A stretch of DNA of 64,000 bases from Eledone cirrhosa (taxonomy: Eukaryota), in assembly GCA_964016885.1 (NCBI GenBank), contig OZ024745.1, forward strand, positions 36,208,001-36,272,000, given 5' to 3'. How positions within the stretch are numbered: the stretch's first letter is position 1; the number at the start of each line of letters is the position of its first letter. Both the position numbers and the translations under genes were made by a program. This document shows, in pieces, positions 1,079 through 62,203 of this stretch. The notes beneath the pieces were generated by a model. The model made no database searches. It was not told the origin of the DNA and saw only the letters and a program-made list of their open reading frames with translations.

Positions 1079-3065
1079 TAAATTAATATGTAAGTGATGA
1101 AACACAGATACCAACACATCTGTATATATATTGCAAAAGAAAAATTTAGCCAGATTGAAGTATACTAATTATTATACTACAGTTTGTCCATATCGATTTA
1201 AAATAATAAATCAACGGAGACGAACTGTATTGCCAAAAGGCGGTGGTGTTTAGACACATTTAAATTTCAAAATCAAACCTGTTCCGTAGATAAGTTTAGA
1301 CTTAAAGATCTAAATATGTTTCGAGTTAAAAACTGTAGTATAATAATTAGTATACTTCAATCTGGCTAAATTTTTCTTTTGCAATATATATACAGATGTG
1401 TTGGTATCTGTGTTTCATCACTTACATATTAATTTATACACTGCTCAGGGGATATTTTTTCCTCATTCGAGCTGATTCCATTGTAAAAGAATTCATTACC
1501 TTATTAAATTTAACTGCTCCTAGTTTGAGCTGCAAACCATCCCATATATACGACTGTTATTTCTAGCAGTACGGTTATGAGACTAGTTAGATACTGTAAA
1601 GCCATGTGCGCCACGCAGTCTTTTAAATTATTTAGAAGTGAAGCATCTCAATTTGTCTCTGGATGTTTACTGAGGAGAGCGGGGCATGATATTCCTACAC
1701 TTTTTTAACTCGAAACATATTTAGATCTTAAAGTCTAAACTTATCTACGGAACAGGTTTGATTTTGAAATTTAAATGTGTCTAAACATCACCGCCTTTTG
1801 GCAATACAGTTCGTCTCCGTTGATTTATTATTTTAAATCGATATGGACAAACTGTAGTATAATAATTAGTATACTTCAATCTGGCTAAATTTTTCTTTTG
1901 CAATATATATACAGATGTGTTGGTATCTGTGTTTCATCACTTACATATTAATTTATACACTGCTCAGGGGATATTTTTTCCTCATTCGAGCTGATTCCAT
2001 TGTAAAAGAATTCATTACCTTATTAATTTTAACTGCTCCTAGTTTGAGCTGCAAACCGTCCCATATATACGACTGTTATTTCTAGCAGTACGGTTATGAG
2101 ACTAGTTAGATACTGTAAAGCCATGTGCGCCACGCAGTCTTTTAAATTATTTAGAAGTGAAGCATATCAATTTGTCTCTGGATGTTTACTGAGGAGAGCG
2201 GGACATGATATTCCTACACTTTTTTAACTCGAAACATATTTAGATCTTAAAGTCTAAACTTATCTACGGAACAGGTTTGATTTTGAAATTTAAATGTGTC
2301 TAAACATCACCGCCTTTTGGCAATACAGTTCGTCTCCGTTGATTTATTATTTTAAATCGATATGGACAAACTGTAGTATAATAATTAGTATACTTCAATC
2401 TGGCTAAATTTTTCTTTTGCAATATATATACAGATGTGTTGGTATCTGTGTTTCATCACTTACATATTAATTTATACACTGCTCAGGGGATATTTTTTCC
2501 TCATTCGAGCTGATTCCATTGTAAAAGAATTCATTACCTTATTAATTTTAACTGCTCCTAGTTTGAGCTGCAAACCGTCCCATATATACGACTGTTATTT
2601 CTAGCAGTACGGTTATGAGACTAGTTAGATACTGTAAAGCCATGTGCGCCACGCAGTCTTTTAAATTATTTAGAAGTGAAGCATATCAATTTGTCTCTGG
2701 ATGTTTACTGAGGAGAGCGGGACATGATATTCCTACACTTTTTTAACTCGAAACATATTTAGATCTTAAAGTCTAAACTTATCTACGGAACAGGTTTGAT
2801 TTTGAAATTTAAATGTGTCTAAACATCACCGCCTTTTGGCAATACAGTTCGTCTCCGTTGATTTATTATTTTAAATCGATATGGACAAACTGTAGTATAA
2901 TAATTAGTATACTTCAATCTGGCTAAATTTTTCTTTTGCAATATATATACAGATGTGTTGGTATCTGTGTTTCATCACTTACATATTAATTTATACACTG
3001 CTCAGGGGATATTTTTTCCTCATTCGAGCTGATTCCATTGTAAAAGAATTCATTACCTTATTAAT
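1079..3065 (+). repeat. 519-bp tandem array (~3.3 units, 1331-3065) with an inverted partial unit at its 5' end (1079-1331), flanked by (TA)n; retrozyme / PLE pseudo-LTR-like
   Basis: CTGTAGTATAATAATTAG recurs at 1333, 1852, 2371 and 2890 with near-identical units. 1079-1331 is the reverse complement of part of the unit. Each full unit carries an HHR-like core. Confidence 0.95.
1661..1730 (+). ncRNA. Type I hammerhead ribozyme-like motif (copies at ~2180-2249 and ~2699-2768)
   Basis: TTTA-CTGAGGA-GAG...CTC-GAAA-CATA-TT-TAGA: conserved core, GAG/CTC base of stem II, weak stems I and III. Confidence 0.6.
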
Positions 3066-3365
3066 ATATATATATATATATATATATATATATATATATA
3101 TATATATATATATATATATATATATATATATATATAATTATACCCTTTATTATTTCCTTACCTCATAAAATTATATGTTTTTTCACAAAAAAGTATTCTG
3201 TCTCTTATATATTCCATGTGCCATTACCAACCTCAATTTTCTCTATATATAATTATATATATTAAATGAAGATGCAGACAATATATAATCACTAATAATT
3301 GATAGAAAATATGAATGCAGGAGTTGTCAAACAAATGTGTAAGCCTGCAAAAAAAACAAAAAAAA

Positions 3366-3450
3366 CTTTCATCCTGACGGGGTCGATAAAATAAAGTACC
3401 AGTAATGCACTCGGACAATTACTGGCCTTGTGCCAACAGTAAAAACAATT
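3366..3450 (+). mobile_element. 5'-truncated tRNA-derived SINE (family of 13057-13232)
   Basis: CTTTCATCC..ACGGGGTCGATAAAATAAAGTACCAGTAATGCACT...GGCCTTGTGCC matches the full copies. Confidence 0.85.
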
Positions 3451-4002
3451 ATTTGGCCTTGATCTAGAATACATGGAAAAATTTCAACGGTCTTGTTTTG
3501 AAATGTTTTGATATGATTTTTGTTGCCTACTTTTGATACTTTATACGTAGAGGAACTAAAACGTACTGCCATATGTGGGAAGAATAAACCATTGACAGAT
3601 AACACATTCGGACAAAATTTGACAAAGAACATGTTATGTTATATATTATAGGGAAGAAATAATAGTATGAGAGAAATTGATAAAAAAAAAGACGTCCTGG
3701 GTTGGGTTCTGAATTATATAATGAATGTATTTTGAAGACACATATCGAAGAAACATATTTTACAGATAAAAATAGAGGTAAAATTCCAAGTGTCTTGTGA
3801 AGGAGCTATTCGTAAAAACAACGGAGCTATCTGTAGCTGGCAGGGTATAAATAAATATAGTCTTTTCCTAACAATGGAAAGGAAAGGGCATTTTTGGAAT
3901 TCCATATCGTGATGAGTGGGTATAAACAATTAAACCAGTAGGAAATAATCTTTCAGGTAAAGTGCCAAAGCACAAATAAAGTGTATCCTTTAATGGAACC
4001 GA

Positions 4003-4248
4003 TTAATCCTTTTGAACCAAACCACCTCAAGCAATTCTTTTTTCTATGATACATAAATCTATTTTATCTAAAAAAAGCTTTCTTCATAATTCTATTTGAA
4101 GAACCATCGTTTATTTATATTACAAACCTCAGCTTAATTATTCAGAAGTTAGTTATATAAGAAGATATTTCTAATTTCTTAATTATATTCAAATTCATAT
4201 GGTATTCATTGGTAAAATGGTAACGAAATACGGTATCGAAATGGTTAA
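4003..4248. mobile_element. Degenerate TTAA-flanked MITE (piggyBac-like); possible second copy ~42941-43185
   Basis: TTAA-TCCTTTTGAACC ... GGTATCGAAATGG-TTAA, imperfect terminal inverted repeats with TTAA at both ends. Confidence 0.45.
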
Positions 4249-59439: not shown

Positions 59440-59560
59440 ATATATATATATATATGTGTGTGTCTGTGAAGTAATTCCGTCGGAAAGGTCCAGGAAAAAA
59501 GAGTGCTCTATATAGGTAACAGAGCTTAATAGTTATGTAATAAACAACATTAGATAATTA

Positions 59561-59621
59561 TTTCATTTACCAGTGGTTTCTTGAATGCTAACAACATTTG
59601 CTTTCAGTCATCAGAATGAAA
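59561..59621 (-). ncRNA. Type I hammerhead ribozyme
   Basis: TTTCATT-CTGATGA-cTGAA...TTCAa-GAAA-CCAcTGG-TA-AATGAAA; 7-bp stem I. Confidence 0.88.
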
Positions 59622-60440
59622 AAGTCGTGGTGTATTTATTGACAGTGGCTTTTAAAAACAAAAATATAATCTATATGAAAGTGAGGCTGGAAAAGGAAGA
59701 AGGAAATGAAAAAGAATTAATATATAAGTAGATAAACACACACACACACGCATACACACATATACATACACACATACATATATATATATATTTATATACA
59801 TACACACATATATACACACACACACACATATATATATATATATCCATACATACACATACACATAAATACACAATCATACACACACACACACACACACATA
59901 TATATATATATTACACACACACACAATCATACATATATACACACGTACATGCACACGCATACATACACACATATATACACGTATGCATACGCACACACAT
60001 ATATAGAAATATGTACACGCAGCTACATACGCACACACACAATTAATTATAAGAAAAAATAAAAAAACAATGAACAACCGTATAATAGGCCATCACATAA
60101 AAATTTTAAATATATGACATAAGAAAATAAAAATTATTATAAAGTTGACAGCGATACCGGAAAGGACACAAATAAATAAACAAACACACGTGGTAAGCAA
60201 TACACACATTTACATATACACATACATATAAATATATACATACACACACACACACACACACACACACACACACACACACACACACACACACACATGTACG
60301 CCGATTGGCGCCCGACAGACTGGTCGGTCAAGGTGAACAAGGGTTTATACATATATATATATATATATATATATATATATATATATATATATATATATAT
60401 ATACATATATATATCTCACCTTGATCACCTTTACCGCACC

Positions 60441-61074
60441 ATTATAATTGAATATAAAAGAAAAACGTACACAGATATATACCTATATGTGTTCAAATCG
60501 CAAGGACCAGATTCGCTAAGGTGAAAAAAATACTAACTATAGACAATAGGGTTTGCCTGTCTCAATTTAAGAAAAAATCAAGAAAATAAATACAAACCGG
60601 AATTGTAGTAACTACCAATAACCCAGACAGCTTGGTGCTGTTTTGCAATATTAATTGGGAATAGAATTACCAATTCTTGCTCATCAGTGGGTGATGAATG
60701 GCTGCTGCTATTTTTAGTGGTGTAAGTTTGTGAGACACGCTAAGATACGATGTGTGTTATTATATATAGCACACTATTCAGTTCCTTAATATACTTAGAA
60801 GTGTCTAGGATACTAATTCATCACCAACTGTTGAGCAAGAATTCGTAATTCTATTCACAATTAATATTGCAAAAGAGCACCAAGCTGTCCGGGTGATTGG
60901 TAGTTACCACAATTCCGGTTTTTATTTATTTTCTTGATTTTTTCTTAAATTGAGACAGGCAAACCCTATTGTCTATAGTTAGTATTCTATTCACCTTAGC
61001 GAATCTGGTCCCTTGCGATTTAAACACATATATGTATATATCTGTGTTCGTTTTTCTTTTATATTCAATTATAA
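60441..61074. repeat. Fold-back element (~260-bp arms), each arm with an HHR (60622-60691 -, 60824-60893 +)
   Basis: CCCA-CTGATGA-GCAA...TTGC-AAAA-CAGC-accaa-GCTG-TC-TGGG; G12 reads A in both arms. Confidence 0.9.
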
Positions 61075-62203
61075 TATATATCTTTCTTGGAGCTATTTTA
61101 TTGTAAGAGACTATTTTGAGTTCCTCACTCAACATATACCTTTGATATATATATATATATATATGTGTAAGTGTGTGTGTGTGTGTATGTGTGTGTGTAT
61201 ATATACATATATATATATATATATATATGTATATATATATATACAATATGATGTAAAAATATGTAGCCGTACAAAAATAAGGAGACGGTGATTGGTAGGA
61301 TTATTTCCTATTTAATTTAATTTATAAGATGTTCTCTTTAATGACATGTTTAACATTTTATTGTTCATTGTCTGAAGAACATAACAATGCAGGCTTTACC
61401 TGCACAACTTCTCGTCACACAAACGTACAGATGCGCGCACTGTCTCTTAACACAATCATATATATATATATATATATATATATACATATACATATATATA
61501 TATATACATGTATATATGTATATATATATTCGCATATACATGTATGTATATATGCATGTATGTATACATCTATATATGTATTTATGAATATGTATGTATA
61601 CATCTATGTATATATATATATATATATATATATATATATATATATATATATATATATATATATATATATATAGATGTATATATAAATATATAGATATATA
61701 GATAACAAAGGAATTGTGGTAAGGAACCAGATGGACCATAACACACGAGAGTACTCAATACTCACGGTAGTAGAGTGGGAAATTAGAAAAAGTATGACCC
61801 CGACGGCAGAGCTCAAACCGTTTCGACGGCTATTTCTGGACTGAAATAGCAGTCGAAACCTTTGAGCTCTGCCGTCGGGGGTCATACTTTTTTCCTAGAT
61901 ATATAGATATATAGATGTACATGTATATATATACATATATATATATATACAGTTGCAACATATATATATATCTTTGATTTAATTTTATGTATATGATAAC
62001 CTTTATATTTAATAATCTCCCAATTGGTTGAGATTAAATTTGGCGATATATGGCTGCGCTTTCTAGCAGCAAGCCTACCCGCCATAAGCAACCAATCACA
62101 CGCTTTCTCTCTGGCTGGTACACAGCTACATAGCGATCTTAGCCATTTTTGAATCTTAATTTGGCGCGGTCGGTTTGAGAAAATAAATGTCTGATTCTGA
62201 GTT

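What the first reader, a model, noticed from the sequence alone, without database searches (positions are those of the whole stretch)
1553..62070. Conserved hairpin module 100-160 nt upstream of the HHR in four unrelated families
Seen: ACTGTTA-TTTC-TAGCAGT (1553; HHR core 1670), GTTGCTA-TTTT-TAGCAGC (34449; core 34624), GCTGCTA-TTTT-TAGTGGT (60704; core 60828) and GCTGCGC-TTTC-TAGCAGC (62053; core 62210). All are on the HHR strand although surrounding sequence looks unrelated. In the first three, substitutions retain pairing through G-U on that strand. Related strings occur at ~12256, 16734, 19241, 25845, 47685 and 49221(-). Inference: a shared cis-element, such as an RT-recognition hairpin, promoter element or 3' splice acceptor (YTATTTCTAG|; PLE pLTRs are known to carry introns). 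I am not aware of a description of it.
Basis: partly seen in the sequence, partly recalled or inferred. Interest (0 to 1): 0.75.

Follow-up and report, generated by a model that had tools for sequence, protein, structure and literature searches.

The report
Shared stem-loop of Penelope-type retrozymes
The short motif is the conserved tip of a predicted RNA stem-loop carried by thousands of small ribozyme-bearing repeats and by one protein-coding Penelope-type jumping gene in this animal genome; it lies just beyond the points where inserted copies end, so it likely helps the jumping gene's enzyme pick the unspliced RNA to copy, although it may instead be a splice site.

Summary
The motif is real and tied to hammerheads on the same strand (7,703 motif-then-core matches genome-wide, control 10). 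It marks one superfamily of (TA)n-inserted retrozymes (12 lineages sampled), not hammerheads in general. It also occurs in an old repeat with no hammerhead found. Two of the four "unrelated" families are homologous. The 7-bp hairpin as drawn is not universal. What is kept is two closing pairs around an NN-UUUY-YA loop, on a longer stem with compensatory changes. The loop sits 19-25 nt behind the second of two small hairpins that follow the two fixed insertion ends; the scan found those twin hairpins before on other DNA. An autonomous Hydra-type Penelope element carries the same loop at the same spacing, with a separate acceptor further on. Most motif-bearing lineages have a splice-donor-like site just after the ribozyme, so an intron likely encloses both reverse-transcription starts. 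Best reading (0.5): a protein-recognition stem-loop selecting unspliced RNA for retrotransposition. Main rival (0.3): a structured 3' splice site. An snRNA-type promoter is rejected. No RNA or binding data. New variant of a known kind; interest 0.5.

The parts
1080..3064 (+). Young retrozyme array (lineage F3): inverted 5'-truncated piece 1080-1332, then 519-bp tandem units, inserted in (TA)n
   Evidence: 1,470 first-look candidates genome-wide, best 40 scored at 96-100% identity
1443..1472 (+). Hairpin 1 (GCTC/GAGC stem), a few nt 3' of the proximal insertion end at about 1438
1516..1530 (+). Hairpin 2 (GCTC/GAGC stem), about 8 nt 3' of the distal insertion end at about 1507; repeats at 2035 and 2554
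1540..1583 (+). Extended stem-loop (predicted); the finding's 18-mer 1553-1570 is its tip; repeats at 2072-2089 and 2591-2608
1665..1740 (+). Type I hammerhead; repeats at 2184-2259 and 2703-2778
1749..1761 (+). Splice-donor-like site, GT at 1756 (inferred)
34296..34331 (+). Hairpin 1 of lineage F6 copy (GTTC/GAAC variant)
34411..34428 (+). Hairpin 2 of lineage F6 copy (TCTC/GAGA variant)
34449..34466 (+). Motif (stem-loop tip), lineage F6
34619..34712 (+). Type I hammerhead (34619-34699) and donor-like GT at 34707; copy ends at about 34786
47647..47702 (+). Decayed fifth member: hairpin 2 (47647-47664) and motif (47685-47702)
   Evidence: resembles lineage F12 by eye
60441..61144 (+). Lineage F2 copy with inverted arm; motif 60704-60721, hammerhead 60822-60895 (core mutated in the direct arm, intact in the inverted arm), degenerate donor-like GT at 60918, distal end at about 61144
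62016..62568 (+). Lineage F1 copy: hairpin 2 62016-62033, motif 62053-62070, hammerhead 62204-62283, donor-like GT at 62292, proximal end at 62568
59467..59620 (-). Terminal repeat and tail of the autonomous Hydra-type family whose full-length copies carry the same loop: hammerhead 59564-59620, hairpin 1 59505-59525, distal end at about 59467
19242..19259 (+). Motif-like string in the old repeat with no hammerhead found (family X)
25845..25862 (+). Motif-like string in family X

Best explanation
The motif is the sequence-conserved tip of a predicted RNA stem-loop that likely serves as a protein-recognition signal, most likely for the Penelope-type (Hydra-clade) reverse transcriptase, on the unspliced RNA of a superfamily of non-autonomous hammerhead retrozymes. 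Shown: each lineage has two fixed insertion ends at (TA)n; each end is followed within about 2-13 nt by a small hairpin; the stem-loop follows hairpin 2 at 19-25 nt; then come 100-160 nt, the hammerhead and, in most lineages, a donor-like GT. An autonomous Hydra-type element has the same order and spacing, with its own acceptor and ATG after the loop. Inferred: a tandem or circular RNA is bound at this module. The nicked (TA)n target pairs with the TA-rich letters just 5' of a hairpin. Copying starts there and runs 5'-ward, so the module itself is copied only from the preceding unit. Both starts lie inside an intron that spans the unit junction, so only unspliced RNA can be copied.
For: Position: ends cluster at -160/-45 (F1), -126/-54 (F2), -118/-46 (F3) and -155/-70 (F4) from the motif; no mapped end lies inside or behind it. 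48 of 74 mapped ends (52 of 79 before five duplicated loci were removed; 109 ends examined) have the small hairpin 2-13 nt later, against 184 of 2,260 random positions. In the anole element the RNA must extend to +172 while copying starts at +111-118 (PMC11167929), so a binding region 3' of the start is expected. Structure: pairs 4-15 and 5-14 are kept in 34 and 33 of 34 representatives. The longer stem shows 17 double-change cells against 8.7+-2.4 shuffled (F2+F3, 28 sequences) and 13 against 4.5+-1.6 (F1, 23 sequences), 0 of 500 shuffles each, with slid controls far lower. The base after AG is a pyrimidine in 29 of 30 loci where the pattern did not fix it, as pairing with G4 requires. Autonomous partner: 23 of 30 loci that run past the distal end of the window's 59614 family continue into hairpin 2. 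Of these 23, 15 carry the loop at 23 nt spacing and 16 carry a separate TTTTCAG|G about 30 nt later, before the ATG. There are 156 such loop-plus-ATG matches genome-wide, control 0. The loop is kept in 12 ORF-less lineages, including one whose hammerhead core is dead (F9) and an F1 subfamily without a donor.
Against: No binding or RNA data. Four other Hydra-like families read at their 5' start have the small hairpins or a plain leader but not this loop, so it is not needed by every enzyme of the clade. Copying starts at hairpin 1 as often as at hairpin 2, yet no loop follows hairpin 1. Single-copy folding of the lower stem is only modest: 23 of 34 lie above the flank-shuffle mean and 5 reach p<=0.05. 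RNAalifold finds only the tip, and I drew the tested structures from the same sequences. In the autonomous element the three closing pairs have probabilities of only 0.30-0.66. My patterns fixed most invariant letters. The motif also lies in an old repeat and a satellite with no hammerhead found. AG is fixed and varies as YAG, as an acceptor would.
Confidence: 0.5

Rival explanations
1. The motif is the 3' splice site of the intron that spans the unit junction, held in a stem so that splicing is inefficient and a pool of unspliced template survives.
For: AG is fixed: TAG 8,558 matches (control 69). One whole lineage has CAG (about 30 of 100 listed rows; 255 matches, control 45). TAA variants (786, control 95) are scattered decay, with no fixed lineage among the 100 listed rows. 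The median donor score after the hammerhead is at least 5 in 7 of 11 scored lineages against 18% of background windows; motif-less hammerhead families mostly score below 5. GC falls after the donor in 10 of 11 lineages. Introns in the 5' leader are known for Penelope (PMC2377424), and one spans the pLTR/body boundary in Chlamys-3 (PMC8557442).
Against: A pyrimidine follows the AG in 29 of 30 loci, unlike the usual AG|G (recalled). The 5' arm letters and the covarying lower stem are unexplained by splicing. An F1 subfamily, F10 and F12 lack a good donor but keep the motif. A branch-point-like CTRAY behind hairpin 2 is present in only some lineages. The autonomous element has a better acceptor about 30 nt downstream. 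ORF-less elements gain nothing obvious from splicing.
Confidence: 0.3
2. The motif is a DNA element of the internal promoter, for example a transcription-factor site; the pairing is a by-product of a palindromic site.
For: The commonest form resembles a MEF2-type palindrome (recalled, not tested). E-box-like, CCAAT and E2F-like strings lie between motif and hammerhead in several lineages. The motif recurs in other repeats.
Against: The palindromic core is broken in F1, F4, F14 and in the autonomous element while RNA pairs are kept. G-U is favoured over A-C on one strand (40 vs 8). The lower stem covaries. The motif is absent upstream of the U2 and U6 genes inspected, and no U6-type octamer was found in 107 loci.
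Confidence: 0.08
3. The stem-loop is read by a host RNA-binding protein, for instance for export or stabilisation of intron-containing RNA, and not by the reverse transcriptase.
For: It co-occurs with donors, lies inside the inferred intron of the autonomous element, and is missing from four Hydra-like families.
Against: The spacing to hairpin 2 is fixed at 19-25 nt in all 12 lineages and 23 nt in the autonomous element, which fits one enzyme-bound module better. No host factor was identified.
Confidence: 0.1
4. The motif is a functionless relic of one old family.
For: F2 and F3, and more weakly F4 and F11, are homologous along the unit.
Against: F1, F5/7, F6 and F9 show no profile similarity to the others outside the module (best E 0.05), yet keep loop, pairs and spacing.
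Confidence: 0.02

Closest known systems
Metazoan non-LTR retrozymes (Cervera and de la Pena 2020, PMC7229834, passages seen; Li et al., bioRxiv 10.64898/2026.07.22.740005, parts 1-3 of 5 seen)
   Same: Non-coding tandem or single units with one type I hammerhead each; proposed Penelope-driven mobilisation.
   Different: In the text I saw, neither describes a conserved stem-loop module, fixed dual ends tied to hairpins, or splice-site-like signals in the unit. Units here are about 430-660 nt.
RT-binding region and two internal start sites of Poseidon PAc, Anolis carolinensis (Frangieh et al. 2024, PMC11167929; parts 1-2 of 4, passages, text of two supplementary figures seen)
   Same: Two start sites that define a tail; RNA needed about 55-60 nt 3' of the start; AT-rich targets.
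   Different: PAc starts inside an AC-rich stem-loop within the ORF. Here the ends are TA-rich, lie 5' of small hairpins in non-coding RNA, and the tail is about 70-110 nt.
Hydra clade of C-terminal-endonuclease Penelope-like elements (Craig et al. 2021, PMC8557442, passages seen)
   Same: The autonomous element carrying the loop has the RWK and DKT motifs, the CxCX5C linker, no CCHH, (TA)n targets and a canonical hammerhead.
   Different: No leader stem-loop or intron is described for Hydra in the passages seen; only one of five Hydra-like families read here has the loop.
5'-leader introns of Penelope (D. virilis; PMC2377424, passages) and Chlamys-3 (PMC8557442, passages)
   Same: Donor in the terminal repeat; in Chlamys-3 the intron spans the repeat/body boundary, as inferred here.
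   Different: Those introns are shown by RNA; here splicing is inferred only, and the elements are ORF-less.

Membership tests
Metazoan non-LTR retrozyme | Type I hammerhead in each unit | tested here: met
   the core is dead in lineage F9
Metazoan non-LTR retrozyme | Non-coding tandem or monomeric units of some hundred nt | tested here: met
   519-bp array; no element ORF behind the motif in the loci read
Metazoan non-LTR retrozyme | Self-cleavage | not testable with these tools
   needs in vitro transcription
Metazoan non-LTR retrozyme | Expressed circular RNA | not testable with these tools
   needs RNA from the organism
Penelope-type insertion | Two fixed 3' ends (tail), 5' truncation, inverted 5' piece | tested here: met
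Hydra-clade PLE (autonomous partner, locus L378) | RWK, DKT, CxCX5C linker, no CCHH, C-terminal endonuclease | tested here: met
   read in the 710-aa ORF against the published description; Pfam gave no significant RT or GIY-YIG hit
Hydra-clade PLE (autonomous partner, locus L378) | Placement in the Hydra clade by RT phylogeny | not tested
   no reference set was fetched
PLE RT-binding RNA element (PAc type) | Lies 3' of the RT start and is shared with an autonomous element | tested here: met
PLE RT-binding RNA element (PAc type) | Start inside an AC-rich loop | tested here: not met
   ends are TA-rich and 5' of the hairpins
PLE RT-binding RNA element (PAc type) | Binds the element protein | not testable with these tools
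   needs a binding or TPRT assay
Spliceosomal 3' splice site | Invariant YAG | tested here: met
Spliceosomal 3' splice site | Pyrimidine tract and branch point | tested here: inconclusive
   only four pyrimidines before YAG; CTRAY in some lineages only
Spliceosomal 3' splice site | Partner donor | tested here: inconclusive
   7 of 11 lineages; scored with a recalled generic matrix
Spliceosomal 3' splice site | Junction in RNA | not testable with these tools
   needs RNA reads or RT-PCR
snRNA-type promoter element | Present upstream of the organism's U2 and U6 genes | tested here: not met
   absent upstream of 14 U2 and 2 U6 loci read

The most novel reading that the evidence does not exclude
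Hydra-type Penelope elements and their retrozyme parasites put both reverse-transcription starts, and a dedicated enzyme-recognition stem-loop, inside an intron that spans the unit junction. Spliced RNA makes protein but cannot be copied; only unspliced RNA carries the packaging signal. This would explain why Penelope-like elements keep their introns, and it names the RNA determinant by which retrozymes hijack a specific Penelope family.
Probability: 0.3. Interest if true: 0.72.

Novelty: new variant of a known kind. Interest (0 to 1): 0.5.

Why it matters
How Penelope-like enzymes recognise their RNA, why these elements retain introns, and which cis-signal lets retrozymes use them are all open questions; Craig et al. 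call the significance of intron retention unknown. This locus set gives a short structured RNA element with natural variants in 12 lineages, a matching autonomous family with an intact 710-aa ORF, and mapped start sites. All three questions become directly testable with the published in vitro assay.

Tried and rejected
RNA evidence: no RNA holder was listed. Three unlabelled contig sets were laid on the array and showed no splice-type joint. Neither result is evidence either way. A pattern for an intron-less retrocopy of lineage F3 found 0 matches; this is uninformative, because spliced RNA would lack the start sites. snRNA-type promoter: motif absent upstream of 14 U2 and 2 U6 loci that could be oriented, of 35 loci fetched; no octamer in 107 loci. 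Rfam: no family at its gathering score; only microsatellite artefacts and two weak HH9 hits elsewhere. The protein-coding element at 30998-33373 is not the parent of the 34449 copy: it ends earlier at its own (TA)n. An ORF behind the motif in L262 is a separate insertion. An apparent TAA lineage is a satellite with TAG in most units. My interim view that the hairpin is simply broken was dropped. A metagenome scan with the partner protein found no relative, so no other species was examined. Histone stem-loop, MEF2, RFX and Staf resemblances are recalled leads only; the first two are broken in several lineages. Literature searches returned no description of this stem-loop. bioRxiv supplements were closed, and the Craig et al. 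supplements were not opened; either could hold it.
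Full report
Setting. The window is G000:C5:36208001-36272000 in a 3.0-Gb animal genome; earlier notes of the scan call it octopus-type, which I did not test. It is rich in (TA)n and holds several Penelope-like ORF fragments.

Observation. The exact motif has 5,805 genomic matches, control 0. Motif followed by a hammerhead core at 95-165 nt has 7,703 matches, control 10. In 864 kb (window plus 800 kb sampled blind) my descriptor found 47 hammerheads against 1 in shuffled DNA. 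Of the 39 outside the window, 2 had a strong motif upstream on the same strand, 1 had a damaged one and none had one on the other strand. The motif therefore marks one superfamily. About 8 of 30 exact-motif loci were hammerhead elements; most others belong to an old repeat with no hammerhead found, family X.

The elements. 107 distinct loci fall into 12 lineages. They are ORF-less units of about 430-660 nt inserted in (TA)n, often with an inverted 5'-truncated piece. F2 (60704) and F3 (1553) are homologous outside the motif, F4 and F11 weakly so; F1 (62053), F5/7, F6 (34449) and F9 showed no link (best E 0.05). These are non-LTR retrozymes with a Penelope-type insertion signature, as described in PMC7229834 (passages), PMC4209133 (parts 1-2 of 4) and the 2026 preprint (parts 1-3 of 5).

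Ends and twin hairpins. Each well-sampled lineage has two fixed 3' ends, both 5' of the motif in the tandem RNA: about -160/-45, -126/-54, -118/-46 and -155/-70. Of 109 ends examined, 79 could be mapped. After removing five duplicated loci, 48 of 74 are followed 2-13 nt later by a small hairpin with an NYTC/GARN stem, against 184 of 2,260 random positions drawn from the motif-to-hammerhead part, which is not composition-matched. The stems vary in step: GCTC/GAGC, GTTC/GAAC, TCTC/GAGA, ACTC/GAGT. The letters between end and hairpin are TA-rich, so the target could pair there (inference). Motif-less hammerhead families have the same hairpin. I reached this before reading that the scan had noted these twin hairpins repeatedly; those notes are not independent support.

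The motif itself. It follows hairpin 2 at 19-25 nt in nearly all loci of all 12 lineages. Across 34 representatives, pairs 4-15, 5-14 and 3-16 hold in 34, 33 and 31; the inner pairs hold in 26 and 25 and the outer ones in 25 and 27. The constant feature is thus two closing pairs around an NN-UUUY-YA loop. G-U outnumbers A-C 40 to 8 on the ribozyme strand, and the sense strand folds more stably in 26 of 34; my patterns fixed part of this. The tip sits on a longer imperfect stem. With structures I drew from the alignments, F2+F3 gave 88% paired cells and 17 double changes against 8.7+-2.4, and F1 gave 90% and 13 against 4.5+-1.6; 0 of 500 shuffles reached these values, and slid controls gave 25-57% paired. 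The tool warns that relatedness alone can beat the shuffles. Unbiased tests were weaker: RNAalifold recovered only the tip, and single copies beat flank shuffles in 23 of 34, at p<=0.05 in 5. The lower stem is likely but not proven.

Autonomous partner. The hammerhead repeat at window 59614 (-) has the same end-plus-hairpin layout. A pattern for its distal end followed by CTC gave 160 matches, control 0. 23 of 30 loci continue into hairpin 2; 15 of these 23 carry the same loop 23 nt later on a different stem, and 16 carry a separate TTTTCAG|G before the ATG of a Penelope-type ORF. Loop plus ATG gave 156 matches, control 0; 97 of 100 listed rows are this family. One of ten copies fetched has an intact 710-aa ORF with the RWK, DKT, CxCX5C and no-CCHH features given for the Hydra clade; no tree was built and Pfam was silent. 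My hand estimate of a chance loop at that spacing is about 1 in 10,000 per family. Four other Hydra-like families lack the loop. That this family mobilises these retrozymes is inferred.

Splicing signals. A donor-like GT follows the hammerhead. The median score is at least 5 in 7 of 11 scored lineages against 18% of background windows, using a recalled matrix, and GC drops after it in 10 of 11. An F1 subfamily, F10 and F12 lack it, and F9 was not scored because no core was found. Motif-less hammerhead families mostly score low, while the autonomous family has a donor overlapping its cleavage site. At the motif, TAG has 8,558 matches, CAG has 255 including one whole lineage, and TAA has 786 as scattered decay. 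Against an acceptor: the next base is a pyrimidine in 29 of 30 loci, branch-like sites are patchy, and the partner has a better acceptor downstream. Either way the inferred intron would contain both start sites, like the boundary-spanning intron of Chlamys-3. Penelope makes both spliced and unspliced RNA. An antisense-template explanation of intron retention has also been proposed (PMC3846280, passages).

Promoter. U2 and U6 genes lack the motif upstream. E-box-like, CCAAT and E2F-like strings between motif and ribozyme in several lineages suggest that the promoter lies there (inference).

Verdict. The feature is a real, strand-specific RNA element, the third part of a module behind the two reverse-transcription starts. 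Conservation in ORF-less lineages, the fixed spacing and the sharing with an autonomous element favour recognition by the element's enzyme (0.5), in line with the 3' requirement seen for PAc. A structured acceptor (0.3), a host RNA-binding site (0.1) or a DNA site (0.08) remain; the first two readings can both be true. Searches found no description of this stem-loop, and the scan's own index had no look-alike of the sequence. New variant of a known kind; interest 0.5.

Noticed in passing
L378:645-2774 (G000:C1, from 319427800); terminal repeat family at window 59467-59620 (-): Intact 710-aa Hydra-type Penelope ORF; its donor-like site overlaps the hammerhead cleavage triplet, so splicing and self-cleavage may compete.
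   Followed up: partly
window 19242, 25845; L002, L007, L012, L016, L023: Old repeat of about 200 bp with no hammerhead found (family X), 23 hits in 800 kb, in which the motif is the best-kept part and lies near one end; relation to the retrozymes unexplained.
   Followed up: partly
L295:1500-2800: Tandem satellite of about 45-55-bp units, each carrying the motif; it resembles family X.
   Followed up: partly
L011, L017, L027: A third repeat family with the motif, ending in (CA)n, with no hammerhead seen.
   Followed up: no
L232, L239, L242, L254, L264: Lineage F9: no hammerhead core found in 5 of 5 copies, yet motif, hairpins and a donor-like site are kept.
   Followed up: partly
L191-L204, L215, L225: U2 and U6 genes share a short C-rich box about 250 nt upstream; the two U6 genes read also have an octamer about 60-70 nt upstream.
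   Followed up: no
window 7732-10213 (+), 30998-33373 (+), 21701-22982 (-), 58387-59532 (-), 10796-11847 (-): Four Penelope-like ORF remnants of different families and a mariner-type transposase remnant.
   Followed up: partly
window 56167-56237 (-) and 56572-56642 (+): Fold-back element with weak Rfam HH9 hammerhead hits below the gathering score.
   Followed up: no
window 12655, 7369, 36497, 37199, 62943: Further hammerheads of families without the motif; the 12655 copy has the small end-proximal hairpin.
   Followed up: partly
L191, L192 at about +490 from the U2 start: A decayed hairpin-plus-motif fragment lies inside a U2 gene array unit.
   Followed up: no
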